A stretch of 64,000 nucleotides of DNA, taken from sequence record CP054387.1, one strand, 5' to 3'. The notes below the pieces were generated by a model, which made no database searches, was not told where the DNA came from, and saw only the letters and a program-made list of their open reading frames with translations. Positions within the stretch are counted from its first letter, which is position 1. Each line of letters starts with the position of its first letter. Both the position numbers and the translations under genes were made by a program. The stretch is from Escherichia phage CMS-2020a. Shown here one piece after another: positions 36,176-53,480 of the stretch.

Positions 36176-36790
36176 TTGGATTATCATGATATGAAAATGA
36201 AACTTTCGTTACTCCTTGCTTGCATATACCTCCCGGCGTTTTCCGCCAACGCATTATCAGATTTCGTCTCTGACATGCAAAAAACGTACAGCATGTTTAC
36301 CTCCGAAGACGTAGTAGAATACAAATCACGAGGTCTGAATCAGCCAGTTTGGTTCAGATTCTCAGACAACGCAGAAGAAACAATACTTAATGGAGGAAAA
36401 GAAAGATTACGGTTGCAAATTAACGGGACCGCTGTACCAGAAAACGTTAATGTAAGCTCTGACGAAGCCATGAAGCCATCTGGAATTGTTTTAGAAGTTC
36501 AAGACGGCACACTTTACTGTGATGAAATGGCTACAACAGGTTGCCAAGTAAACATTAGGGTTGGCAATGAAGACCCTATCGTTACTTACGCCAAGGCTGA
36601 AGGGAATACAAGTGGAAAGGTATTGTTTATCGATGAAAATACCTCAAAACGTATCGTTCGTGACATACAGAAAACAGCGAACTCTAAATCCGTCGATAAA
36701 AAAATCTATGTTGAGGTTCCCTTCTTTGTCGTTGGTAACAAAGAATTTAAATTTGGGTTGCTGAAAACACCTCTAAGAGTATCAGAATGA
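36176..36790 (+). CDS. hypothetical secreted/periplasmic protein
   Basis: N-terminus MKMKLSLLLACIYLPAFSANA looks like a Sec signal peptide with AxA-type cleavage region. Confidence 0.55.
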   Translation: MDYHDMKMKLSLLLACIYLPAFSANALSDFVSDMQKTYSMFTSEDVVEYKSRGLNQPVWFRFSDNAEETILNGGKERLRLQINGTAVPENVNVSSDEAMKPSGIVLEVQDGTLYCDEMATTGCQVNIRVGNEDPIVTYAKAEGNTSGKVLFIDENTSKRIVRDIQKTANSKSVDKKIYVEVPFFVVGNKEFKFGLLKTPLRVSE

Positions 36791-37311
36791 GAACATTGGA
36801 CATCACCTACGGCATACCGGCTGAAGTATGGCCGCGAGACTACGAACATGCTGAACGTACCTTGCTCTTCTGGCGGAAAGCTAAATTTCCTGTCAGAGTC
36901 ACACTTGAAGATGGTCAGGTGTTTTGCATGTATGTGCAGGGAACAATGTCTTCCCGCAACAAGCTAGATTTATGTCCAGCACCGCTTGATAATGACAATC
37001 GTATAAGACTCCCACTTGAGCGCATTAGTACAATTGAATCAGGTGTCATTGATGGCATTGCTTACGATTTCAAAGGGAGACTAACAATACATCCTGACTA
37101 TGTAGATAACCAGCCATCACGTCGTGACTTTTTTAAGATATGTCGTCAGGCTTACCAAAACGGCAAATCTATAAGGGTCTACATGGCAGACGGTCGCGAA
37201 ATTGAGGGAACGTCAGATGGTGTTGACGCCTGTCTAGTCACACTTAAGTTGGAGGACGGTAGAAAAATACTTATTTTCTTCGATTGGGTTGAACGAATCC
37301 TTCCGTTCTAA
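36787..37311 (+). CDS. hypothetical protein with two similar beta-rich halves
   Basis: 174 aa; internal duplication-like segments VRVTLEDGQVFCMYVQG and IRVYMADGREIEGTSDG; overlaps upstream stop by 4 nt. Confidence 0.5.
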   Translation: MRTLDITYGIPAEVWPRDYEHAERTLLFWRKAKFPVRVTLEDGQVFCMYVQGTMSSRNKLDLCPAPLDNDNRIRLPLERISTIESGVIDGIAYDFKGRLTIHPDYVDNQPSRRDFFKICRQAYQNGKSIRVYMADGREIEGTSDGVDACLVTLKLEDGRKILIFFDWVERILPF

Positions 37312-38785: not shown

Positions 38786-39369
38786 TTTCCAATACACCTA
38801 CCATAACGCGCCAATGATGGCGCGTTTTTATTGTCTTTAACTCACTCCAACAACATAAAAATAAGCGCCAAAATAACGCCATAGACGCGCTTTTATATCC
38901 TTGTCAGTACATACCCATTACTTAACACATTAACGCGCTTAAAACACGTTATATTGCGCTATAGAGTATGGTTAATCATTGGCTTTTAGTCTTGCTATGT
39001 GATCCGCGTTTATTTGTCGGCGCGGATCGGCATTTTGTTTTGTTCCGTATCCGCTCGCGTATTATGTGCGCGTGATTTTTCACATAATCACACCACTTAA
39101 TCACGTATGCGATTACGCTACGAAAGAAATCTGGATGTCTCAGGCGACGAAAGTCATCATAATTTTCCCCGCTCACCTGTCCGACAACCGCTGGTTGGAT
39201 TCCACCAGCTTCCCGATGTTTTTTCTACATAAAGGCGAATGCAGCCGTTTCCCGAAAAAATCCTGGCCGTTCCCCGTCGGTTCATGAATACGTTCCTCGC
39301 CGTTTCTGAAAATTTCCCTGCGGCATCTGGTGGCTATAGAGAAAGGGCCGTTACTGGCCCTCTTCTCAG

Positions 39370-39852
39370 TTACACGCCATCAAGGATGTGGATGCGGTTG
39401 CTTGCGTATACATTCAGCATAAAGTTAGCGCAAAACAGTTTCCATGTATCAACGCCAGCGGTATACGTAATGTTTTTGCATTTAATTGCATTGTTGGCGA
39501 TCCGCATCCCCTGCGATACTGCTTCATCGTCGGAAAATTTGAACGACGATTGAGTTTTAATCCAGACAGAAATCTGCGTAGCGAACTCAATCAGCTTGGA
39601 CTGGCAGAATCGCCCGGAGCGCACCGGAAAGACGAACGTTCCGAATCCAGAATTTACCACATACGCTTTCTCAAATACCCGCGAGTAACGACGATTGCCA
39701 ATGATGTCGCGTGCAATAATGCATTTTTCTTGTGCTGACAGTTCTACCGTCTCATTGTCGCGCCATGCACCAAGTACTCGTTTTTCAATGTCAGAGAACG
39801 TTACAGCGATATTGCCATGTGCGGGTGCGTTTACAGTAGCGATAAAATTCAT
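39370..39852 (-). CDS. hypothetical protein
   Basis: 160 aa ORF, no recognised motif. Confidence 0.45.
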   Translation of the reverse strand: MNFIATVNAPAHGNIAVTFSDIEKRVLGAWRDNETVELSAQEKCIIARDIIGNRRYSRVFEKAYVVNSGFGTFVFPVRSGRFCQSKLIEFATQISVWIKTQSSFKFSDDEAVSQGMRIANNAIKCKNITYTAGVDTWKLFCANFMLNVYASNRIHILDGV

Positions 39853-39938
39853 GATTAATTCCTTATCGTAAATAACAAATTGTTTTCTTGTTGGCGTTAA
39901 TTATCGTTGTACGAATAAGGCGTCAAAGTGGAAAGTTG

Positions 39939-40027
39939 CGGTAGCCGGACGGGAACAGGTGGGTTTGTCGGTTGCCTGGAGGTAAGAGGTTGGTGTTTTT
40001 AGCCTGCGGGAAACAGGATGGTCATTT
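39939..40027. repeat. iteron-like tandem direct repeats (about 31 bp, 3 units)
   Basis: cggtagccggacgggaacaggtgggtttgt / cggttgcctggaggtaagaggttggtgttttt / agcctgcgggaaacaggatggtcattt; related units at 43454..43517. Confidence 0.55.
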
Positions 40028-40202
40028 AAGGCCACCAGCAGTGGTGGCCTTAATAATTATCGACCGATTACGCTAAGGATCTTTTCCTCAACTGATTTGT
40101 TGTTGCGACTAAACTGCCTTGCGTATCTGATGACAGAAGAGGCGTTTTGCTTTCTGACTATCTCGGCTCTTTCCTTCAGGCGTTTCTTGAAATCGCCCAT
40201 AT

Positions 40203-40577
40203 TTACCACCAGGCGCAGAAGGTCAGTCTGTTATTGTGAAAGTCGTGGTTCTTAATCAGCTCTTCCACAAGTTTTTTCAACTCCCCCACGTCATGCCAGT
40301 ACCCTTCATCGTACTCCTGACTGCCGAAGAAAAAACCTTCACAGGTAGGTAAGTACTCTTCGCAGTTACTTTCGTTCATGTGCATCAAATGAGCTTTCAG
40401 AGCACAAATGTCATTCATCGTTAATTCTAAAAGCTCACAATTTTTGACTTCACCTACGTTGCGTTCCATCCACCCAAAGAGAGCATTGAACTTACGGAAG
40501 TAAGCAACCTTCTTTCTGGATGCATCGTTATTCAGATCGTTTTTTGGTTGCGTCTCAATGTAGATATCAAGTCCCAT
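40203..40577 (-). CDS. hypothetical protein
   Basis: 124 aa ORF. Confidence 0.45.
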   Translation of the reverse strand: MGLDIYIETQPKNDLNNDASRKKVAYFRKFNALFGWMERNVGEVKNCELLELTMNDICALKAHLMHMNESNCEEYLPTCEGFFFGSQEYDEGYWHDVGELKKLVEELIKNHDFHNNRLTFCAWW

Positions 40578-40695
40578 GATGGTTTCCTTATCAAGTTGCT
40601 TTCAGTGAAAGCATTTTCACAAATCAGATAAGGCAGAAAACAAATTGTTATCGGGCATAAGAAAATGGCGCGGTTTACGCGCCATTCAAAGAGGA

Positions 40696-41091
40696 TTAAG
40701 CGAATACGCTTTCAGGGATTAAGGTGTCAGCAGGAATGCCGGAGGTAATGCGCAGACCATACTGACCAATCCAGGTAGTGTTAGTGTTCAGACTGGAAGC
40801 GAATACGGTGTTAACCATATTCATCATGGTTTCAAACACCTCTTTATTCACCTTACGGAAGTAACTTTCAATTTTCAACAACAACGGGTCCGTTGCATCA
40901 AAAATGGACTGATATTGCGCCTCATATTCCCCGCCTGATGTATCTCCTTTACGCACAATAGTACTTGCCTGAACTTCAGTTCCAGTTTCGGTGTTGTACG
41001 TAACGACGGTGATTTTAGCTACATTCTTACCTTCGGCGCTTTCTGAAGCATAGTAGACATCAACTGTCAGGTTTTCTCGTTTAACGCTCAT
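40696..41091 (-). CDS. hypothetical protein
   Basis: ORF 40696..41103 with probable start at internal Met (MSVKRENL). Confidence 0.45.
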   Translation of the reverse strand: MSVKRENLTVDVYYASESAEGKNVAKITVVTYNTETGTEVQASTIVRKGDTSGGEYEAQYQSIFDATDPLLLKIESYFRKVNKEVFETMMNMVNTVFASSLNTNTTWIGQYGLRITSGIPADTLIPESVFA

Positions 41092-41216
41092 ATCACTCTC
41101 CATAGTGTCTTGGTTATTTTTCTATTTTATAGACATAGGTATGTACTTACAATACAAAAAACCCCGTAAGGATGGCGGGGCTGTCGTACTGTCGACTAAT
41201 TACCACTTGCACATTA

Positions 41217-41528
41217 TCAGGCTATTGCCATCACTGATGCTCTCTGAATCTCTTGCTGGGCCACGCGGTTAACTTCCATCAAAGCCAGTTCGAGCTGATG
41301 TTCCGGCCACATTCTTTGAAATGCCATCCAGCCTTTTCCACGCTGGCGACGAACATTCATTACATAACGAGTAAAGGTGTTTTTATCGAAAGACACCGCT
41401 GTTTCACGGAACAGACGAATAGAGGTTCCATTGGCAACGATGTCCAGCAAAGTTAATTGAGCAACCAGTGCAGGCTTCTCTTTTCTCTTCTGGTCTTTGT
41501 CCAGACCAAGAACCAATGATTTTTTCAT
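41217..41528 (-). CDS. hypothetical protein
   Basis: ORF 41217..41558, probable start MKKSLVLGL; palindromic motif and 30-bp repeat directly upstream. Confidence 0.45.
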   Translation of the reverse strand: MKKSLVLGLDKDQKRKEKPALVAQLTLLDIVANGTSIRLFRETAVSFDKNTFTRYVMNVRRQRGKGWMAFQRMWPEHQLELALMEVNRVAQQEIQRASVMAIA

Positions 41529-41682
41529 CACAACTCCGTAAACAACTTGTTTTCTCAATGGCGTAAATAATACCAGTAAGAAAACGGCTACAAAGCATAT
41601 TGATCAGGCGCATGAGCGATATGCAGGTTCTTCCCTGCGGCTACAGATGAAGTTAAGCCAGCAATGCTGGCTTTGGTTGGGC

Positions 41683-42012
41683 TTACGCGAATATCGCAAG
41701 GAAGTCCTGAACGTCCCAATGCTGGACGAGGTGAAGATAGACCTTAGAAATCACGTCATTTTCGCTATCGCATGTGAAGTAGTACTTCTGGCTGCGGTTG
41801 TATGTGTCCACACAAAATTCGCTCATATCCATAAAGTCAGCATCTTCACCCATGTCGCAAATCATCAAAGCAGGTGCGTCATCACGAGTCATCAGCTCCA
41901 GCACCCATCTTGAATTAATCAGAGTGGAAGACCAACCTTCCAGCTCATAAAACTGGTCAAACTCTTTTTGAGTCAATTTCTTAATTTGGTTGATGTCGAT
42001 ATTTGCAAACAT
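41683..42012 (-). CDS. hypothetical protein
   Basis: Start ATG 42012 with AAGGA 8 nt upstream (MFANIDINQ...). Confidence 0.45.
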   Translation of the reverse strand: MFANIDINQIKKLTQKEFDQFYELEGWSSTLINSRWVLELMTRDDAPALMICDMGEDADFMDMSEFCVDTYNRSQKYYFTCDSENDVISKVYLHLVQHWDVQDFLAIFA

Positions 42013-42122
42013 AAAGCAATCCTTAAACATGTTGTTTTCTGAATTACGTAAACAATACCAGTAAGAAAACGGCCACAAAGTATATCGTTACGGTGCTACG
42101 CTGCCCCGAGGTTAATAGCGAC

Positions 42123-42147
42123 AAAAGCCACCGTGCTGGTGGCCTCA
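42123..42147 (-). terminator. rho-independent terminator candidate
   Basis: Hairpin gccacc-gtgct-ggtggc followed on minus strand by TTTTGT, just after stop of 42151..42369. Confidence 0.5.
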
Positions 42148-42150
42148 CTC

Positions 42151-42369
42151 TTAATCTTGGTCGTCCGGGAACTCGCTGTGTACCGCGCCCACCAGCTCCC
42201 GCTTTTCATCTTCACTCAGCAGGTGCCAGATATCCTTCCCTTTGGGCGATTCCCCTTCTGCCGGGACGAACGACCACAACTTGCGGTACAACTCCGGCCC
42301 CACTGCATCCAGACACTCAGCCAGGGAATCCACGCCCCACACCTCAACCGTCACAGGCATCTTAATCAT
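42151..42369 (-). CDS. hypothetical small acidic protein
   Basis: 72 aa, GAGGA RBS upstream, visibly higher GC than neighbours. Confidence 0.45.
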   Translation of the reverse strand: MIKMPVTVEVWGVDSLAECLDAVGPELYRKLWSFVPAEGESPKGKDIWHLLSEDEKRELVGAVHSEFPDDQD

Positions 42370-43020
42370 CTCTTCATCCTCACTTCGTTTCTATAACGTC
42401 TAAATATGCTGTTTACTTGTTGGTGTTATTATCGCAATAAGATAAAGGCGAAAAAGGATTTTATGTCGGGAAAGCCAGGCTGGGCAGTGAATATCCGGGA
42501 ACGACACGAGAGCCAGTATTTACGATATTCTGCTCTACGCGCGCCGCGGGGCTGGTGGGTAGAATAATCCTCTCCCCGAAAACCTACTGAAATCGATTGT
42601 GACCCGCTGGCTGTCTGGCACAATTACGCTGTATCTGGCATTCAGAGGGAATCCAGCGGTAAGCAAGTCAGCCTGCACGTGAGCGCCTCTCTTCTTCCCG
42701 CACATTACAGGTGGGTAGCTGCAACTCTCTCGCTATACCGGTACGCCGCCGTTCCTGAACCGGCATCGAGCCTTTTCCCGAAATCCACACAGGCAACTCG
42801 ACCGTTTCCCTGAAAATCCCCAGCCGTTTCTGTAGCGTATGCAACCTTTTCTCTGTATGGACCGAAGGCTGACCGTAGGGGTGTTACGGGGGGTGATGGT
42901 AAGATGTTGAATAAATACGAAAAAGGAGGCGACACACCTCCTTCCCTCTCCACTTATACATACCTGGCTTCTTCGCTATACATGTTGTGTTTTATCTGTC
43001 TCAACCTCTCTATAGGCGTT

Positions 43021-43760
43021 AATGCTCACTCCTTCCAGAATGTTCTATACGGCGACTATTTCTGTTGGTGAATTGGGTGTGTTGTTTTCTCTGTCGGTGT
43101 ATGTGGTTTCGTTAGTTTTGCGGTGGTTCTTCTATGGGGGTGTTCTCGTCGTTTTGGTGATTGTTCTTCTCCGTGTATGGAGTAATGGCAGGTGGGCGAT
43201 TGCTTTCGTTATTGTGTTTGAGTTGTTTGTCTGGAGTGTGTGAAGGCTTTTGTAGTTATTCGTGTATTGGGTAATGGCGTTTCCCGTGATTGTTATGTTT
43301 CGTGTCTTTTGGGATTGAGAGAAACCTTGCGGTTACAGGCTTCGTTAGGGTTTCAGCGGTTCAGGTGTTTCTTCGCTGTTTGGGTAATGGCGTGTCGTGG
43401 GTATCGCGCGTATGAATGTTTTCGGATTGCCTGTGAAAGTTAGGTTGGTTGTCCGGTAGCCTGGGGAGAAGAGGTGGGTCTTTTCGGTAGCCTGCCATAA
43501 AGAGGTTGGTTGTTTTGGGTAATGGCATATGTGTTATTTGGTTGTTTTGTTATGCCTGAAAATAAGTTGTTTATATGGTTGTGTAACGCAACGGGAGCGA
43601 TTTTGAGCGTGTGTTTTTGTTGGTAGTGTGTTGAGTCGTCTGTGGTGAAATTTGGACGCTGTGGCGCTATCTGCTGCGTAGAATTACGGGTATAAGAAGT
43701 GATGTGTGATAACGTCAATTTTTTAGACCAAATCGGGAGAAAGCGTTGATGTTTCGTTGA
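43021..43760 (+). other. strand-asymmetric GT-rich non-coding tract with short repeats
   Basis: Plus strand strongly enriched in G and T; GGGTAATGGC at 43269, 43382, 43517 and a variant at 43180; only low-complexity ORFs. Confidence 0.5.
43454..43517. repeat. iteron-like tandem direct repeats (2 units of ~32 bp)
   Basis: ccggtagcctggggagaagaggtgggtctttt / cggtagcctgccataaagaggttggttgtttt; same family as 39939..40027. Confidence 0.55.
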
Positions 43761-43910
43761 TCTGTTATTTAGTTGTTTTCTTATTGGTATAAACAACCAT
43801 AACCTATTGATATTTAATGATGTGATTGCTGGTATGGGAGGGTAGTAGTGGCGATCAACGGGTTCTTATAGAAAAGAATCAAATTGTGACCGCCATTATC
43901 AACGGTTTGA

Positions 43911-44096
43911 TTAGATGAGATGGTCTAATTCATCATCTATCATGGCTTTGACGCTGGAGTCGTTCACTCCATATTTATTTATGAGCTGTTTCAGCTCTGT
44001 CGAAAACTGAAGGTAGATATCGTGAGCGTTTTTCACTGTAGGTTCAACGCCACTCATTTCAAGCGCCTTTAGTAGATATGAGTCTTCTTTAAGCAT
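43911..44096 (-). CDS. hypothetical small protein (uncertain)
   Basis: 61 aa ORF downstream of 44133..44432. Confidence 0.3.
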   Translation of the reverse strand: MLKEDSYLLKALEMSGVEPTVKNAHDIYLQFSTELKQLINKYGVNDSSVKAMIDDELDHLI

Positions 44097-44132: not shown

Positions 44133-44432
44133 TTACCATTGCCAGCACTCAAGCCCTTCAACGACCGGTGCGCCACAATCAAAATGTACAGAGTTAAAGC
44201 CTACATCAAGTACTTTCTGAATGTTCGCAATCGCACCCTCGGATATACCATATCGACGCAACTCATCTTTCCAGTCATCGTCCTGTAACCCGGCGTGGAC
44301 AATGCAACCGTACTCAATTTGTGAAACCCAATCCAGCTCATTGCTTGCGATCATGAATCGGCGAGCATCTTCCTCTGATGTATGAGATGAACTGATCAAT
44401 GCCACCTGGTAGGCTTGGGTAATGTTCAACAT
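44133..44432 (-). CDS. hypothetical protein
   Basis: 99 aa ORF; palindromic motif 14 nt upstream of its start. Confidence 0.4.
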   Translation of the reverse strand: MLNITQAYQVALISSSHTSEEDARRFMIASNELDWVSQIEYGCIVHAGLQDDDWKDELRRYGISEGAIANIQKVLDVGFNSVHFDCGAPVVEGLECWQW

Positions 44433-44544
44433 TTCAACTACTCCAAAACAAGTTGTTTTCTTATGTGGCTTATTATCTCAATCAACAAAAGGTAGAAAAC
44501 AAATTGTTTTAGGGATTGTGTAAATCAGGAGGGATTGTGTCTAT

Positions 44545-44593: not shown

Positions 44594-46627
44594 TTACTTA
44601 ACCTGGTGGCCAGGTTTAGCACCAGCATCCGGGCTTAACAGGAAGATATCTTTCCCGCCAGGACCGGCAGCCATCACCATGCCTTCAGAGATACCGAAGC
44701 GCATTTTACGTGGTGCCAGGTTAGCCACCATAATGGTGTGACGACCAATCAGTGCCTGTGGATCTGGATAAGCGGAACGGATGCCTGAGAAGACATTACG
44801 CTTTTCACCACCGAGATCCAGCGTCAGGCGAAGCAGTTTGTCAGAACCTTCGACAAACTCCGCGTTTTCAATCAGCGCCACACGCAGGTCAACTTTGGCG
44901 AAGTCGTCAAAGGTGATGGTTTCCTGAATCGGTTCGTCAGCCAGTGGGCCAGTTACCGGTGCAGCTGTGGCTTTCACTTCTTCTTTGGATGCTTCCACCA
45001 GTGCTTCCACCTGTTTCATATCGATACGGTTATACAGTGCCTTGAACGGATTCACTTTATGGCCCAGAAGCGGTTGCTGGATACCATCCCAGGTCAGTTC
45101 TGTATTCAGGAATGCTTCTGCACGTTCAGTCAGTTTCGGCAGTACCGGTTTCAGGTACGTCATCAGCACGCGGAACAGGTTAATGCCCATAGAGCAAATC
45201 GCCTGCAGATCTGCATCGCGACCTTCCTGCTTCGCCACCACCCACGGAGCCTGTTCATCGACATAGCGATTAGCCAGGTCAGCCAATGCCATGATTTCAC
45301 GGATAGCTTTACCAAATTCGCGGCTTTCCCATGCTTCGCCAATCACTTCAGCGGCATCAGTAAAGGTTTTGTACAGTTGCGGGTCAGCCAGTTCGCTTGT
45401 CAGCACGCCGTCAAAACGCTTGTTGATAAAGCCTGCATTACGGGAGGCCAGGTTAACCACTTTGTTCACGATATCGGCATTCACGCGCTGAACGAAATCT
45501 TCCAGGTTGAGATCGATATCATCAATGCGCGAAGAGAGTTTCGCAGTGTAGTAGTAACGCAGGCTGTCAGCGTCAAAATGATTCAGCCAGGTGCTGGCTT
45601 TAATAAAGGTGCCGCGAGACTTGGACATCTTCGCGCCGTTCACCGTCACATAGCCGTGAACAAACAGGTTGGTCGGCTTGCGGAAGTTGCTGCCTTCCAG
45701 CATGGCAGGCCAGAACAGACTGTGGAAGTAAACGATATCTTTGCCGATGAAGTGGTACAGCTCGGCGGTGGAGTCTTTCTTCCAGTATTCGTCGAAGCTT
45801 ACGCTGTCGCCGCGCTTGTCGCACAGATTCTTGAAAGAACCCATGTAGCCAATCGGCGCGTCCAGCCAGACGTAGAAATATTTGCCCGGCGCGTTCGGAA
45901 TTTCAAAACCGAAGTAAGGGGCGTCGCGGGAGATATCCCACTGTTGCAGGCCAGATTCAAACCACTCCTGCATTTTATTTGCCACCTGCTCCTGCAACGC
46001 ACCGCTGCGGGTCCATGCCTGCAACATTTCGCTGAAAGAGGGCAGATCAAAGAAGAAGTGTTCAGAATCACGCATTACCGGCGTAGCGCCAGAAACCACC
46101 GATTTCGGCTCGATCAGTTCAGTCGGGCTGTAGGTCGCGCCGCAGACTTCGCAGTTATCGCCGTATTGATCCGGGGATTTACATTTCGGGCAGGTGCCTT
46201 TTACAAAACGGTCCGGCAGGAACATGCATTTTTCCGGATCGTACAGCTGTGAGATGGTGCGGTTTTTAATAAAACCGTTTTCTTTCAGGCGAGAGTAGAT
46301 AAGCTCGGACAACTGACGGTTCTCTTCGCTGTGCGTCGAGTGATAGTTGTCATAGCTGATGTTAAAGCCTGCGAAATCAGTCTGATGTTCCTGACTCATT
46401 TCGCCAATCATCTGTTCCGGTGTGATACCAAGCTGCTGTGCTTTCAGCATGATTGGCGTACCGTGGGCATCGTCGGCACAGATGAAATTAACCTCGTGGC
46501 CGCGCATTCGCTGGTAACGAACCCAGACATCAGCCTGGATGTGCTCCAGCATATGGCCGAGGTGGATTGAGCCGTTAGCGTACGGCAGCGCGCACGTCAC
46601 CAGAATTTTCTTCGCGACTTGGGTCAT
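44594..46627 (-). CDS. metG: methionine--tRNA ligase
   Basis: Translation from internal Met ([48 protein letters not shown]...) matches enterobacterial MetRS as I recall it, including HLGH and KMSKS motifs and C-terminal tRNA-binding domain; ORF-track N-terminal extension rejected. Confidence 0.97.
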
Positions 46628-46784
46628 AGTAGGCATTACTTCTTTGTAGTGAAAAGGGGCTTGATAGTAACAAAATGGCCTTATGTCTGCCATGTGATAA
46701 CAGCATTTCTCATAAATGATTAAATGTCGTAGCTGGAGTACACTACAAGGCGACAATTGCGCAAATTAAAATAAAGGAGACGGG

Positions 46785-47885
46785 ATGAGCGAGTCCAAAT
46801 CGCCGGATGCCCTGAGAGCAATGGTAGCCGGTACGCTGGCTAATTTTCAGCACCCAACCCTGAAACACAACTTGACTACGCTTAAAGCGTTACACCATGT
46901 TGCGTTGATGGATGACACACTGCATGTCGAACTAATCATGCCTTTCGTGTGGAATAAGCCTTTTGAAGACCTGAAAGAGCAATGTAGTGGTGATCTGCTC
47001 CGTATCACTGGCGCAAAGGCTATTGACTGGAAGCTGTCGTACAACATTGCCACGCTTAAGCGCGTCAAAAACCAACCAGGCATTAATGGCGTTAAGAACA
47101 TTATCGCCGTCAGCTCAGGCAAGGGCGGCGTGGGTAAATCCTCCACAGCAGTAAACTTGGCACTGGCTTTGGCTGCTGAAGGTGCGAAAGTTGGTATTTT
47201 GGATGCCGATATCTATGGTCCATCAATTCCAACCATGCTGGGCGCGGAAAACCAACGTCCAACCTCACCGGACGGTACTCACATGGCACCTATCATGTCT
47301 CATGGCCTGGCAACCAACTCTATTGGTTATCTGGTCACCGATGACAATGCAATGGTGTGGCGTGGACCGATGGCGAGCAAGGCGCTGATGCAGATGTTGC
47401 AGGAAACACTGTGGCCTGATCTGGACTATCTCGTTCTCGATATGCCACCGGGCACTGGTGATATTCAATTGACGCTGGCGCAGAACATTCCTGTAACTGG
47501 TGCGGTTGTGGTAACTACGCCGCAAGACATCGCGCTGATCGATGCGAAGAAAGGCATTGTGATGTTCGAAAAAGTCGAAGTGCCGGTACTGGGTATCGTT
47601 GAAAACATGAGTGTGCATATTTGCAGTAACTGCGGTCATCACGAGCCAATTTTTGGCACCGGTGGAGCACAGAAACTGGCCGAGAAATACAACACGCAGT
47701 TGTTAGGCCAAATGCCACTTCATATCTCTCTTCGTGAAGATCTGGATAACGGAACACCAACCGTTATTAGTCGTCCAGATAGCGAATTTACGGCTATTTA
47801 TCGTGACCTCGCAGATCGCGTTGCTGCCCAAATGTATTGGCAAGGTGAAGTAATACCTGGCGAAATCGCATTCCGCGCAGTGTGA
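46785..47885 (+). CDS. apbC: Fe-S cluster carrier ATPase ApbC/Mrp
   Basis: 366 aa; P-loop SSGKGGVGKSSTAVNLA, CxxC motif HICSNCGH; divergent from metG as in enterobacterial chromosomes. Confidence 0.95.
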   Translation: MSESKSPDALRAMVAGTLANFQHPTLKHNLTTLKALHHVALMDDTLHVELIMPFVWNKPFEDLKEQCSGDLLRITGAKAIDWKLSYNIATLKRVKNQPGINGVKNIIAVSSGKGGVGKSSTAVNLALALAAEGAKVGILDADIYGPSIPTMLGAENQRPTSPDGTHMAPIMSHGLATNSIGYLVTDDNAMVWRGPMASKALMQMLQETLWPDLDYLVLDMPPGTGDIQLTLAQNIPVTGAVVVTTPQDIALIDAKKGIVMFEKVEVPVLGIVENMSVHICSNCGHHEPIFGTGGAQKLAEKYNTQLLGQMPLHISLREDLDNGTPTVISRPDSEFTAIYRDLADRVAAQMYWQGEVIPGEIAFRAV

Positions 47886-47922: not shown

Positions 47923-48312
47923 CTACATCACAGGACAATCATCAAACTCGCCACTTCTTGCGTCGTTGATAATGTGAGTGATCACACCAAACACGGCATT
48001 GCTGCCCGTGCATCCATCGTCATCCTTTGGCAATGCTTCCTTCTTACCGGTTCTTAAATCCTCCAGATGCTGACGTGGAGACTTCCGGTATCTTTTTACG
48101 CGATATTCCCCATCCAGAGCGCATACAAGCAGAGAACCATCAACCGGGGTAAGTGAGGAATCAACCACCAGCAATGCACCCTGTAATATTCCCTCACGAT
48201 GATGACTATCAGCTGCTCTCATGAAGTAGGTCGCTGAAGGATGTCTAATTATCTGCTGATCAAGAGAAATACGGCTCTCAGCATAATCCGCCGCAGGAGA
48301 AGGGAAGCCCAT
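47923..48312 (-). CDS. UmuD-prime/HumD-like S24-family protein (N-terminally short, resembles processed UmuD)
   Basis: [37 protein letters not shown]... parallels UmuD from about residue 25 ([37 protein letters not shown]); Ser in DSH and Lys in VKRY retained; in-frame stop 4 codons upstream of ATG so no N-terminal arm. Confidence 0.85.
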   Translation of the reverse strand: [129 protein letters not shown]

Positions 48313-48328: not shown

Positions 48329-48348
48329 TACTGTTCATTTACACAGTA
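48329..48348 (-). promoter_or_regulatory. LexA box (SOS operator)
   Basis: Minus-strand TACTGTGTAAATGAACAGTA fits CTGT-N8-ACAG, 16 nt upstream of the HumD-like start codon. Confidence 0.8.
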
Positions 48349-48484
48349 TACATGAAAGAAGCTCACTCAGTGCAACTGATCGGTACATAGCACCAGACAA
48401 AGGAACGTTATTTTCTCGAACAAGAAAAGGTAGAAAACAAATTGTTTAAGGCCACAACTAGTGGCCTTAATGGAGAAGGGATGC

Positions 48485-49009
48485 TTATTGGCTATGGCTA
48501 AAAATCAAATGAGACACTTCATTTGGTTGTAGCTCGTCAAGATCCGGGGCCACAAAACCTTTTCCGAAAGACTTCACAAGTGATTCACCAGCCGCATCAT
48601 TGTCACCTATTACGCGAAAGTCATACGGCAGCATTGCCAGTTGACGACGTAATCCTGCTGAGAAAGTCGAACCTAACAGCGCCCACGAATTTCCGCCCGC
48701 GTTGTGCACTGCTGCACTTTTAAAAATCGACTCAGTTATCCATATCGGTCCATCTTTTAAAGGAAGATAGGTTCCCCATAGTAGCTGTCTGCCGTGCGCT
48801 CGTGTGAAATACCGGGCCATCTTCGGATTGCTATGCTGCTTAGGAGCGCCTGGTCTGTATGTCTGATACCCGGCCAACATCCCATCAAACCTGTATAGAG
48901 GGAATGTAACAACTCCTTCGCTTTCATCGATCCACTGTCTATATGGATGCACATCATAGCGGTAGTTACGAGTTAGCAAATGAGCTTCCAGCTTTCCAAA
49001 TTTAGTCAT
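48485..49009 (-). CDS. hypothetical protein (possible TOPRIM-like acidic motif)
   Basis: Start at internal Met MTKFGKLEAH; segment RVIGDNDAAGE resembles a DxD TOPRIM motif, weak. Confidence 0.4.
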   Translation of the reverse strand: MTKFGKLEAHLLTRNYRYDVHPYRQWIDESEGVVTFPLYRFDGMLAGYQTYRPGAPKQHSNPKMARYFTRAHGRQLLWGTYLPLKDGPIWITESIFKSAAVHNAGGNSWALLGSTFSAGLRRQLAMLPYDFRVIGDNDAAGESLVKSFGKGFVAPDLDELQPNEVSHLIFSHSQ

Positions 49010-49022
49010 AACTTCGCATCCC

Positions 49023-49877
49023 TCATAACACTTCCCATTTATCACCATATTTCTCCATAGCTCTTAGCCAATAAACATGGCCACTAGGCATAGTGATGTG
49101 AGGCTCGCCAAACTCTTCTCCATGTACATCAAAGATGTCCCCAACAGAAAATTGGGGGATTTCTGTTCCGTTTTCACCTATATGTGTAATTCGTATACGT
49201 TTCGGTTGGGATTGTCCACCTTTGAGCGAGTTGTTCACTGCTCTGGCAATTTTCTCCCGCAATTGCTGCGTTCCGTGATACGTAACCGCAATATCCCGCA
49301 ACTCATTCACTAGTTCTCGAATTTGGTGATCTTTAAGCTCATTATTTGGGTGATTGGTAACAACTCTGGTTAATTCCCCATTGTCTTTTGCTCTTACGTA
49401 TGCAGCTCTTGTGCATTCGCCCCATGTATTACCGCCTACATTAACTTCGTAGATTAGGCTGGACTTATCTGTCAATTCGGAACAAATACGGGCCGTGGTC
49501 TGGCAACTAGAGCATTCGCAGTTATCGCGGAAACCGTGGTCTACTGGCTTCGGTTTAACATCATCAACTTTTTCTACCCTATTGGAATTTAAATACTTCG
49601 AAGCCTTGCTATGCCAATCGCTGGTTTTAGGATCTTGTCCATCCATCAAACGCCAGGCTTCAGCTATTAACTCATAACTAGTGACTGTAGCTTCCTGCGC
49701 ATCACCAATAAGTCGTGTAATCTCTCTTTCAAGCCGACCGCCTAACTCCGTTTTAGTGCAATGTTCTGACCAATCGCCAGTCTCAAGAAGCGCGAGAATG
49801 CTTAAAATATCGTCCAATAGAACGGTAGTATTATCGACTTCCTTCTGAAACTCACCGGCTACTGATTTATGCATCAT
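49023..49877 (-). CDS. hypothetical protein
   Basis: 284 aa ORF with Cys cluster CECSSC. Confidence 0.45.
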   Translation of the reverse strand: MMHKSVAGEFQKEVDNTTVLLDDILSILALLETGDWSEHCTKTELGGRLEREITRLIGDAQEATVTSYELIAEAWRLMDGQDPKTSDWHSKASKYLNSNRVEKVDDVKPKPVDHGFRDNCECSSCQTTARICSELTDKSSLIYEVNVGGNTWGECTRAAYVRAKDNGELTRVVTNHPNNELKDHQIRELVNELRDIAVTYHGTQQLREKIARAVNNSLKGGQSQPKRIRITHIGENGTEIPQFSVGDIFDVHGEEFGEPHITMPSGHVYWLRAMEKYGDKWEVL

Positions 49878-52700: not shown

Positions 52701-52941
52701 TGGCTGCCTCCTGCTTTTCTGCCTTCAACACCATGCGAGAACCATCATCCAGCTCCCACACTATCTCACCACCTTCAGCCATGACCAGTTGCCACACCAA
52801 TTGAGCAGCCTCATTGGTAACATCACGACCTGGATCATTGCCAACGCGCATACGTCCACCTTCAACATCGCGCATTTTTGCCAGCATGATAGTTTTTGAT
52901 AGCGGTGAAAAACCAAGCTGTAGTCGTGCTGAATTACTCAC
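52687..52941 (-). CDS. hypothetical small protein
   Basis: 84 aa ORF. Confidence 0.4.
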   Translation of the reverse strand: MSNSARLQLGFSPLSKTIMLAKMRDVEGGRMRVGNDPGRDVTNEAAQLVWQLVMAEGGEIVWELDDGSRMVLKAEKQEAASERN

Positions 52942-53480
52942 TGGTTGCCTCCTTTGCGAAGCTGGGCAGCAAAGTCAACTAACCACTCAGTCATTTCAAC
53001 CTTCCCTACCAGGTCTGAACCAGGGTGCATACAGCAATCACTCTGCGCCGCTTTGAAATCCTTATACTCATATTCTTGGGCCACCAGATTTTTTGCAGCT
53101 TCTATAGCAGCATCCACCCCCTGCGCACGTACTTCAGCCAGAAAAGCATCGGTGGCTGGAGTCTCCGTTAATTCGCTAACCCAATTATCTCCGTGTTCCT
53201 CGGCACACATCGCATCGAATGCTCGCTCAGATTCTTTCAGGGCTGCATTCTCCGCCGCTAATGCGTCTCTCTGCGCCCGCAACTTCTCAATTTCGGCAGC
53301 CATGTAGTAACCAACCATAGCGAAGACGGCAAAAGAGTTGTCTGCCTCATCAGGCGACACTGAGGCCATTAGCAGACCATCGTAATAATCGTGACTCCCA
53401 TTGGTGATCGCCACCTCATAGGAGTCGTGGTTCTCACGCTTGTGAATGAGAACTACGGGGTTTTCGATTTTGTTACTCAT
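52938..53480 (-). CDS. hypothetical protein
   Basis: 180 aa ORF; preceded on minus strand by hairpin plus palindromic motif block. Confidence 0.45.
   Translation of the reverse strand: MSNKIENPVVLIHKRENHDSYEVAITNGSHDYYDGLLMASVSPDEADNSFAVFAMVGYYMAAEIEKLRAQRDALAAENAALKESERAFDAMCAEEHGDNWVSELTETPATDAFLAEVRAQGVDAAIEAAKNLVAQEYEYKDFKAAQSDCCMHPGSDLVGKVEMTEWLVDFAAQLRKGGNQ

What the first reader, a model, noticed from the sequence alone, without database searches (positions are those of the whole stretch)
39370..42369. Block of five to six small uncharacterised genes with shared upstream repeats
Seen in sequence: genes 39370..39852, 40203..40577, 40696..41091, 41217..41528, 41683..42012 and 42151..42369 are all minus-strand, 70-160 aa, with good RBSs and no motif I recognise. 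Two have nearly identical 5' leader repeats and one is followed by a hairpin terminator. Inference: small accessory genes of this kind in prophages are often anti-defence proteins, toxins or host-takeover factors.
Basis: partly seen in the sequence, partly recalled or inferred. Interest (0 to 1): 0.45.

Follow-up and report, generated by a model that had tools for sequence, protein, structure and literature searches.

The report
Operator-gated small-gene cassettes, SSU5-type phage-plasmid
The six small genes are real, and each sits in its own promoter-to-terminator cassette on an SSU5-type phage-plasmid, most of them behind one shared palindromic control site; their functions are still unknown, with only circumstantial links to anti-defence.

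Summary
All six minus-strand ORFs exist at the stated coordinates, RefSeq calls the same genes, and each has a Shine-Dalgarno sequence.

**Host element.** It is not an integrated prophage. It is a ~110 kb SSU5/pHCM2-type phage-plasmid, 98% identical to p09EL50 and to phage PhiR41_1.

**The "shared leader repeats".** They are a ~55-nt module: a sigma-70-like promoter followed by a 15-17 bp palindrome, AGAAAACAAnTTGTTTA, just before the ribosome-binding site. The palindrome occurs 15 times in the window against 0.8 expected, and ~19 times plasmid-wide. It is conserved at the same positions in Salmonella SSU5 and in a Klebsiella relative. It also precedes parA, the terminase operon, nrdB and a dnaB-like gene. 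I read it as the operator of an unidentified element-encoded repressor.

**The proteins.**
- None matches Pfam, NCBIfam or PADLOC.
- P1, P3, P4 and P6 are conserved in all or most of the SSU5-type elements compared.
- P2 and P5 are absent from SSU5 itself and from pJN2-26.
- P1 has a confident fold with no known relative.
- P2 belongs to a very large unnamed family that lies next to ArdB/ArdC anti-restriction genes in two conjugative elements.

The anti-defence or host-takeover reading stays plausible but unproven.

The parts
39370..39852 (-). P1, 160 aa, pI 9.2. Found in all five SSU5-type elements compared and, elsewhere, only on ~100-110 kb enterobacterial plasmids of this type. High-confidence model with no known fold.
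39872..39927 (-). P1 promoter-operator module: TTTGAC (39927-39922), 16 nt, GATAAT (39905-39900), 13 nt, then the palindrome AAAACAATTTGTTAT (39886-39872).
   Evidence: Sequence, motif search, alignment of 16 leaders. The promoter assignment is inferred from sequence only.
39339..39367 (-). Hairpin after P1, with no U-run.
   Evidence: Fold -19.1 kcal/mol, z -1.7.
40057..40200 (-). 47-aa basic ORF (pI ~11). Its ATG lies 3 nt after the P2 stop codon.
   Evidence: Its Cyrano homologue CYRAN_109 is expressed 6-fold above background in the LF82 lysogen. Followed by a 12-bp hairpin at 40026-40053, z -4.5.
40203..40577 (-). P2, 124 aa, pI 5.0. Member of a very large unnamed family with invariant N-terminal M-G-L-D, YWRK.N and LPT..GFFFGS.EYD motifs.
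40613..40651 (-). P2 control region: the palindrome in reversed orientation (40637-40651), upstream of an extended -10, TGtGAAAAT (40621-40613).
   Evidence: The same layout occurs at 44496, 48434 and 53554.
40696..41091 (-). P3, 131 aa, pI 4.7. Present in all five SSU5-type elements compared, with 30-36% identical relatives in N15/phiKO2-type linear phage-plasmids (phiKO2 Gp62). It has its own TTGTAA-17-TAAAAT promoter (41152-41124) and no operator.
   Evidence: Terminator hairpin plus U-run at 40663-40687, z -3.5.
41217..41528 (-). P4, 103 aa, pI 10.5. Present in all five SSU5-type elements compared and found only on SSU5-like plasmids.
   Evidence: No PDB sequence match. Hairpin plus U6 at 41160-41182.
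41539..41594 (-). P4 promoter-operator module: TTTGTA, 16 nt, TATTAT, 13 nt, then AAAACAAGTTGTTTA (41553-41539).
   Evidence: (D1, D4).
41683..42012 (-). P5, 109 aa, pI 4.2. Restricted to the E. coli/Shigella clade: 229 plasmids, plus one Enterobacter relative at 33% identity.
   Evidence: Hairpin at 41655-41673, z -2.6.
42024..42079 (-). P5 promoter-operator module, 82% identical to the P4 module over 77 nt: TTTGTG, 16 nt, TATTGT, 13 nt, then AAAACAACATGTTTA.
   Evidence: (D4).
42151..42369 (-). P6, 72 aa, pI 4.5. Relatives on 1045 plasmids, including 470 conjugative Klebsiella F-type plasmids at 53% identity.
   Evidence: Hairpin plus U-run at 42117-42149.
42401..42436 (-). P6 promoter: extended -10, TGcGATAAT, with a decayed operator (TAAACAGCATATTTA). 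The operator is intact in SSU5 and Klebsiella.
42727..43909 (.). Conserved non-coding stretch inside the block. The minus strand is A/C-rich. It holds three exact copies and one degenerate copy of TTGGGTAATGGC, plus one palindrome copy (43559-43573).
   Evidence: No Rfam match. Function unknown.
43911..44096 (-). P7, 61 aa, acidic. Belongs to the same block.
   Evidence: The T7 gp5.9 Pfam hit is only E 0.029 over 17 residues.
44133..44432 (-). P8, 99 aa, DUF5983. First gene of the block. Two palindromes (44496-44510 and 44445-44459) flank its extended -10, TGaGATAAT (44480-44472).

Best explanation
**What it is.** The block is the small-gene arm of an SSU5/pHCM2-type phage-plasmid. It is a string of single-gene (one two-gene) cassettes, each with its own sigma-70-type promoter, ribosome-binding site and closing hairpin.

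**How it is controlled.** Four cassettes of the wider block (P1, P4, P5, P8) carry a 15-17 bp palindrome, AGAAAACAAnTTGTTTA, 10-13 nt after the -10 box, centred at roughly +13 to +17 of the inferred transcript. P2 and P8 carry it in reverse orientation just upstream of an extended -10. I read it as the operator of one element-encoded dimeric DNA-binding repressor that gates about 19 promoters across the plasmid. The repressor would keep these genes off during plasmid carriage and release them together on entry into a new cell or on induction.

**What the products do.** They are small cytoplasmic proteins without known domains. Their most likely role is to help the element establish itself: neutralising host defences or taking over host functions.

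**Shown versus inferred.** Shown: the genes, the repeated module, its statistical excess and its conservation. Inferred: promoter and operator function, the repressor, the timing, and any anti-defence activity.
For: **Architecture.**
- ORFs and hairpins.
- A 55-nt promoter-palindrome module aligned across 16 leaders from E. coli, Salmonella SSU5 and Klebsiella pJN2-26. The core AG.AAACA...T.TT is invariant.

**The palindrome is not chance.**
- 15 hits in the window against 0.83 expected; 0 of 100 shuffles reach 15.
- 4 more in the rest of p09EL50.
- 7 of the ~19 sites lie in this 5 kb block.
- The sites sit at the same gene-relative positions in SSU5 and pJN2-26.
- The palindrome is absent from unrelated loci that carry homologous genes: ICEs, pOXA-48 and an IncFIB(K) plasmid.

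**Regulon breadth.** It also precedes parA-like, terS/terL, S24 peptidase, TerB-like, nrdB, cobT-like and dnaB-like genes.

**Silence in lysogeny.** Cyrano homologues with the operator read 6-26 normalised counts in LB, against a background of about 10 (my estimate from the paper's fold-over-background values). They rise several-fold in cell-culture medium and in macrophages (PMC9928086).

**Functional hints.**
- No structural or replication homology.
- P2 relatives are adjacent to PF03230 Antirestrict or ArdC in ICEs.
- P2 has a fold-level match to YfbM and to the DNA mimic DMP12.
- A DUF5983 relative lies between ssb and the oriT region, near an antirestriction gene, on pOXA-48.
- A Rad homologue lies at 48485-49048.
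- SSU5-type elements otherwise show almost no recognised anti-defence genes (10.1101/2025.09.12.675607).
Against: - No transcription start, repressor or binding assay exists; promoters and operator are read from sequence alone.
- The S24 peptidase gene carries the palindrome yet is well expressed in the lysogen (148 counts). The parA-like gene, which must be on in the plasmid state, also carries it. The site therefore cannot be a simple off-switch.
- P3 lacks the site, and the P6 copy has decayed here.
- P1, P3 and P4 occur in all five elements compared. That fits a housekeeping role in the element's life cycle as well as it fits anti-defence.
- The anti-restriction neighbourhood was seen in only 2 of 8 P2-family contexts inspected.
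- The invariant N-terminal G-L-D and GFFFG motifs of P2 look more like an active or binding site than a DNA-mimic surface.
Confidence: 0.45

Rival explanations
1. The palindrome acts in RNA, not DNA. It lies in the short 5' leaders and would be the target of an RNA-binding translational repressor. The obvious candidate is the conserved FljA-family protein at 36787-37311; FljA represses fliC mRNA translation in Salmonella. The block would then be a translational regulon.
For: - In 12 sites the motif lies between the inferred start and the Shine-Dalgarno sequence, always 10-39 nt before the start codon and in one orientation.
- A full-length Flag1_repress protein (E 9e-80) is encoded 2 kb away and is conserved in SSU5 and pJN2-26.
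- No helix-turn-helix regulator was found in the window.
Against: - The site is an almost perfect inverted repeat, typical of dimeric DNA binders.
- Four copies are reversed and lie upstream of the -10 box, behind terminator hairpins, where they would be little transcribed.
- The A-U hairpin it could form is too weak to fold on its own (sequence; one search shows only a marginal pairing).
- Nothing links FljA to this sequence.
Confidence: 0.15
2. The genes are lysogeny-phase 'morons': cargo expressed from the resident plasmid for the benefit of the host or the element, for example exclusion of other phages or stress functions. They would not be entry or induction genes.
For: - Each gene has the classic moron layout of its own promoter and terminator.
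- Expression of several Cyrano homologues rises 4-10-fold in cell-culture medium and macrophages without phage production.
- The 47-aa ORF homologue is 6-fold above background in the lysogen.
Against: - The six listed genes are at or near background in LB lysogens and were not called morons in PMC9928086.
- No PADLOC defence model matches.
- The shared site also precedes the terminase operon and replication genes, which are not lysogenic functions.
Confidence: 0.15
3. The conserved members (P1, P3, P4, P6) are ordinary life-cycle factors of SSU5-type elements, for example replication-switch, partition, or transcription accessory proteins. They would have nothing to do with host defences.
For: - P1, P3, P4 and P8 are syntenic in all five elements compared (E. 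coli, Salmonella, Klebsiella); P6 is in four of the five, missing from Cyrano.
- P3 is shared with N15/phiKO2-type phage-plasmids.
- They flank a 1.2 kb conserved non-coding region with iteron-like repeats.
- P4 is strongly basic.
Against: - No similarity to any replication, partition or regulatory family.
- P1 has no known fold.
- P6 and P8 families are widespread on conjugative plasmids with unrelated replication systems.
Confidence: 0.2
4. The block encodes toxins or toxin-antitoxin pairs.
For: The genes are small. One overlapping pair exists, P2 with the 47-aa basic ORF. SSU5-type elements carry several TA systems elsewhere.
Against: No TA family hit in Pfam, NCBIfam or PADLOC. All genes but one are monocistronic with their own terminators. 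No hydrophobic or membrane-type peptides among them.
Confidence: 0.05

Closest known systems
Dispersed C1 operators of phage-plasmid P1 (from established knowledge, not tested here)
   Same: One short specific site is repeated at many promoters around a plasmid-prophage genome, tying scattered genes to a single repressor.
   Different: P1 operators are asymmetric 17-mers of unrelated sequence, whereas this site is a palindrome. No cognate repressor is identified here. The site also precedes parA and a lysogen-expressed S24 peptidase gene.
Anti-defence islands in the leading region of conjugative plasmids (PMC11541004)
   Same: A one-directional array of small, mostly unannotated genes. It shares gene families (DUF5983, DUF1380, DUF4942, the P6 family) and lies near known anti-defence genes.
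   Different: The element is not conjugative: there is no oriT or relaxase. No single-strand promoters were looked for or seen. Here each gene has a double-strand promoter plus a lineage-specific operator, and that operator is absent from pOXA-48 and IncFIB(K) plasmids.
Promoter-early stem-loop (PeSL) cassettes of T4-type phages, and lambdoid 'morons' (from established knowledge)
   Same: Small ORFs are individually framed by a repeated promoter element and a stem-loop. Gene content varies between relatives, and identity is mosaic, 87-99.8% cassette by cassette.
   Different: The sequences are unrelated. Four genes are fixed across all five elements compared. Recombination at the repeats was not demonstrated.
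E. coli YfbM (PDB 1ryl) and Neisseria DNA-mimic protein DMP12 (PDB 3w1o), for P2 only
Rad, the retron anti-defence toprim protein of T5-like phages (10.1101/2023.03.15.532788)
   Same: A homologue is encoded 4 kb away on the same strand of the same small-gene arm.
   Different: None of the six genes is related to Rad.

Membership tests
Known anti-defence protein families (ArdA/Ocr DNA mimics, ArdB/KlcA PF03230, ArdC, T7 gp5.9) | Sequence or profile membership | tested here: not met
   No Pfam hit above threshold for P1-P6. The only relevant hit is gp5.9, for neighbour P7, at E 0.029 over 17 residues. NCBIfam gives nothing.
Known anti-defence protein families (ArdA/Ocr DNA mimics, ArdB/KlcA PF03230, ArdC, T7 gp5.9) | Strongly acidic, DNA-like surface | tested here: inconclusive
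Known anti-defence protein families (ArdA/Ocr DNA mimics, ArdB/KlcA PF03230, ArdC, T7 gp5.9) | Inhibits a defence system when expressed | not testable with these tools
   Needs co-expression or plating assays.
Anti-phage defence systems (PADLOC) | Match to a defence-system protein model | tested here: not met
   0 families for all 10 proteins scanned.
Toxin-antitoxin modules | Two-gene operon with a recognisable toxin or antitoxin domain | tested here: not met
   No TA domain. Five of six genes are monocistronic with their own hairpins.
Moron / autonomous cassette architecture | Own promoter upstream and terminator downstream of a single ORF | tested here: met
   Conserved -35/-10 module. Hairpins after every gene, three with U-runs. 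Promoter activity itself was not measured.
Repressor-operator regulon | Specific site over-represented and positioned at promoters | tested here: met
   15 observed against 0.83 expected. 17 of the 19 sites (<=2 mismatches) lie directly upstream of genes, and all five zero-mismatch or orthologously conserved block sites do. Positions are conserved in SSU5 and pJN2-26.
Repressor-operator regulon | Identified cognate DNA-binding protein | tested here: inconclusive
   No HTH protein in the window. Candidates are an HTH regulator elsewhere on the plasmid, the FljA-like protein, two ParB_N proteins, and the 119-aa ORF after parA.
Plasmid leading-region anti-defence island | Position next to oriT, first DNA to enter by conjugation | tested here: not met
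   The matching plasmids are predicted non-mobilizable in the large majority (220 of 229 P5-bearing, 323 of 342 P2-bearing). No relaxase is annotated on p09EL50 in the regions read.
Plasmid leading-region anti-defence island | Shared gene families with known leading regions | tested here: met
   A DUF5983 relative lies beside ssb and an antirestriction gene on pOXA-48. P8 family: 1663 conjugative plasmids. P6 family: 470.
YfbM (DUF1877) / DMP12 fold, for P2 | Structural superposition with significant score | tested here: inconclusive

The most novel reading that the evidence does not exclude
Two readings are not excluded.

(a) P2 founds a very large family of small proteins on phages, prophages and ICEs: at least 7,694 clusters, with no Pfam model and no name in any source. 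Its conserved N-terminal GLD and GFFFG motifs would mark an unrecognised anti-restriction or host-takeover activity.

(b) The palindrome defines a plasmid-wide regulon of SSU5-type phage-plasmids that couples partition, replication, packaging and entry genes to one regulator. That regulator might be the FljA-like protein acting on mRNA leaders.
Probability: 0.2. Interest if true: 0.7.

Novelty: new member of a known kind. Interest (0 to 1): 0.4.

Why it matters
SSU5/pHCM2-type phage-plasmids are common in clinically important lineages: S. Typhi H58, XDR Shigella sonnei and E. coli ST131. Yet almost no recognised anti-defence genes are found on them (10.1101/2025.09.12.675607).

This block, with its shared control site, is the obvious place to look for the missing functions. 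A plaque-forming relative on E. coli K-12, PhiR41_1, makes that directly testable.

The P2 family is large enough that assigning it a function would annotate thousands of phage and ICE genes. The palindrome gives a concrete handle on how these elements switch between plasmid and phage life.

As it stands, though, the finding is a well-organised set of hypothetical genes, not a demonstrated new mechanism.

Tried and rejected
- **Rfam** on 38.5-44.7 kb: one sub-threshold sRNA hit outside the block, nothing else.
- **RNA folding** of 42370-42960: no more stable than shuffles, z +0.85.
- **PDB sequence searches** for P1, P2, P3, P4, P5 and P6: nothing credible.
- **P5 against potato multicystatin**, E 1e-4. 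This is an artefact of summing three weak repeat matches, each with i-E 20-300. Rejected.
- **P7 against T7 gp5.9**, E 0.029 over 17 residues. Too weak to use.
- **Plus-strand hydrophobic ORFs** 43022-43243 and 43240-43443. These would have explained the G/T-rich strand as a membrane peptide. They are frame-shifted or stop-interrupted in relatives, so they are not genes.
- **LexA boxes.** One plausible box lies before the S24 peptidase gene. The one inside P4 is probably chance.
- **The generic promoter/terminator scanner** found no excess over shuffles. It misses these promoters because their -35 boxes are weak and several rely on an extended -10.
- **The search for the regulator** by Pfam in the window found no HTH protein.
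- **One preprint** on an SSU5-type heteroresistance mechanism could not be read.
Full report
**What the window is.**
The 5.6 kb around the finding matches 245 complete E. coli genomes, always on plasmids of about 100-115 kb. The best match is p09EL50 of O104:H4 at 98.2%. It also matches the phages PhiR41_1 (98.2%) and Cyrano (94.2%) and, in part, Klebsiella phage-plasmids and Salmonella phage SSU5. The element is therefore an SSU5/pHCM2-type phage-plasmid, not an integrated prophage. The window holds tail, head and terminase genes, ParB-like genes, a UvsW-type helicase, host-like metG and apbC, and a long one-directional arm of small minus-strand genes from about 64 kb down to 39 kb.

**Checking the observation.**
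- Each has a Shine-Dalgarno sequence.
- Against relatives, substitutions concentrate at third codon positions: P3 38 of 51, P2 17 of 26.
- Every protein matches a PHROG over its full length.

The genes are real.
- A 47-aa basic ORF (40057-40200) whose ATG lies 3 nt after the P2 stop codon.
- Two further genes of the same block: P7 at 43911-44096, and P8 at 44133-44432, which is DUF5983 (E 2e-12).
- Every cassette, not just one, ends in a G+C-rich hairpin. Those after P3, P4 and P6 carry U-runs.

**The shared upstream repeats.**
The P4 and P5 leaders are 82% identical over 77 nt, and a third copy precedes P1. Aligning 16 leaders from this plasmid, SSU5 and Klebsiella pJN2-26 shows a ~55-nt module. 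It consists of:
- a -35-like TTTGnn or TTGGAC;
- a 16-nt spacer;
- a -10 GATAAT or TATTAT, often with an upstream TG;
- 10-13 nt;
- AG-AAAACAA-n-TTGTTTA;
- the ribosome-binding site.

The palindrome AAAACAAnTTGTTTT (two mismatches allowed) occurs 15 times in the window against 0.83 expected, and no shuffle reaches 15. It occurs four more times in the rest of p09EL50. Seven of these ~19 sites lie in the 5 kb block.

The sites come in two layouts:
- **After the -10.** The site lies between the -10 box and the ribosome-binding site. This holds for P1, P4, P5, P8, the parA-like gene, the terminase operon, a TerB-like gene, nrdB, and the cobT-like and dnaB-like genes.
- **Before the -10.** The site is reversed and lies just upstream of an extended -10, behind the previous gene's terminator. 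This holds for P2, P8, the S24 peptidase gene, and the gene at 52938-53480.

The sites are kept at the same gene-relative positions in SSU5 and pJN2-26, although the genes are only 35-82% identical. The motif is absent from unrelated elements that carry homologues of the same genes.

The simplest reading is an operator for a dimeric repressor encoded by the element. I could not identify the repressor:
- No HTH protein is encoded in the window.
- An HTH regulator lies elsewhere on the plasmid.
- A full-length FljA-family protein lies 2 kb away.

Because the site sits in the short mRNA leaders, control at the RNA level remains a live rival.

**Expression evidence from a relative.**
In E. coli LF82 carrying Cyrano, the homologues of P1, P2, P4 and P5 give 6-26 normalised counts in overnight LB, where background is about 10. 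They rise several-fold in cell-culture medium and in macrophages. The authors did not class them as lysogeny-expressed morons. Cyrano is induced 39-fold by ciprofloxacin (PMC9928086). This fits repression during plasmid carriage.

It does not fit a plain off-switch. The S24 peptidase gene bears the site and is well expressed, and parA must be on in the plasmid state.

**The proteins.**
None of the six hits Pfam, NCBIfam or PADLOC.

| Protein | Size, pI | Distribution | Other findings |
|---|---|---|---|
| P2 | 124 aa, 5.0 | In the three E. coli elements, not SSU5 or pJN2-26; also on ~119 Klebsiella plasmids at 86% | Very large unnamed family (see below) |
| P3 | 131 aa, 4.7 | All five elements compared; also N15/phiKO2-type linear phage-plasmids at 30-36% | Own promoter, no operator |
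| P4 | 103 aa, 10.5 | SSU5-type plasmids only | Conservation pattern suggests a beta-rich protein, not an HTH (my reading of alignment A2) |
| P5 | 109 aa, 4.2 | E. coli/Shigella clade only | None |
| P6 | 72 aa, 4.5 | 1045 plasmids, 470 of them conjugative | Sits in a long array of small unknown genes on Klebsiella F-type plasmids |

A presence/absence comparison of five elements shows P1, P3, P4 and P8 in all five and P6 in four. P2, P5 and the 47-aa ORF occur only in the three E. coli elements, and P7 in only two of those. Identity to Cyrano varies cassette by cassette, from 87% to 99.8%. That suggests exchange of individual cassettes.

**P2 in more detail.**
- P2 belongs to a very large family without a name or Pfam model: 2356 representative clusters and at least 7694 clusters at 90% identity.
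- Its N-terminal G-L-D, R-K-x-N and P-x3-GFFFG motifs are invariant.
- In two proteobacterial ICEs, a P2 relative lies directly beside an ArdB/KlcA-type or ArdC-type anti-restriction gene, just before the relaxase.
- In six other contexts it sits among small unknown genes or ordinary chromosomal genes.

**Context that bears on function.**
- P8's family is on 2301 plasmids, 1663 of them conjugative.
- On pOXA-48 the P8 relative lies immediately after ssb and upstream of the mobA/traI relaxase genes, in a cluster that also holds an antirestriction gene, DUF1380 and DUF4942.
- The 187-aa protein at 48485-49048 is 42% identical to a protein of T5-like phages. It also matches Proteus phage Privateer, whose homologue was tested as Rad, the retron anti-defence protein (10.1101/2023.03.15.532788).
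- A survey of clinical isolates found Rad to be the only recognised anti-defence gene in E. coli/Shigella SSU5-type elements.

The arm therefore already holds one known anti-defence gene and several families shared with plasmid leading regions. This is guilt by association, not proof.

**Verdict.**
The architecture is well supported. The operator reading is likely. The anti-defence or establishment role for the products is the best available guess, at moderate-to-low confidence. It is strongest for P2 and the acidic P5 and P6, and weakest for the conserved P1, P3 and P4.

**How unusual it is.**
This is an ordinary kind of object, a phage early or accessory gene array, with two features worth following up: the plasmid-wide palindrome and the very large P2 family.

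Noticed in passing
window 42727-43909: About 1.2 kb with no conserved ORF, yet homologous to SSU5 at 67% identity. The minus strand is A 39%, C 33%, G 12% over 43100-43750. It holds three exact copies of TTGGGTAATGGC (43267, 43380, 43515) and one degenerate copy, and four GGGTAATGG copies sit in the same place in SSU5. Plus-strand ORFs here are broken in relatives. It could be an iteron- or centromere-like array, a second origin, or a long C-rich untranslated RNA.
   Followed up: partly
window 48485-49048 (-): A 187-aa toprim protein, 42% identical to proteins of T5-like phages (488 phage records). It matches the family described as Rad, the retron anti-defence protein.
   Followed up: partly
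window 44594-47885: Host-like metG (methionyl-tRNA synthetase) and apbC are carried inside the phage-plasmid, splitting the small-gene arm.
   Followed up: no
window 48331-48346: A LexA-box-like CTGTTCATTTACACAG lies 19 nt upstream of the S24/UmuD-like peptidase gene (47923-48312). That gene also has a reversed palindrome at 48434-48448.
   Followed up: no
window 36787-37311 (+): A full-length FljA-family 'repressor of phase-1 flagellin' (Pfam E 9e-80), conserved in SSU5 and Klebsiella relatives. Its target on the plasmid is unknown.
   Followed up: no
window 40057-40200 (-): A 47-aa, pI 11 ORF whose start codon lies 3 nt after the P2 stop codon; not annotated on p09EL50. Its Cyrano homologue is 6-fold above background in the LF82 lysogen, while upstream P2 is silent. 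That hints at a separate promoter or an RNA product.
   Followed up: partly
window 39900-40040: A C-rich remnant (C 36%, G 16% on the minus strand) with repeats related to 43450-43516. It lies where relatives carry an extra ~280-350 nt gene (SSU5_115 family) and another palindrome, so the window appears to have lost one cassette.
   Followed up: partly
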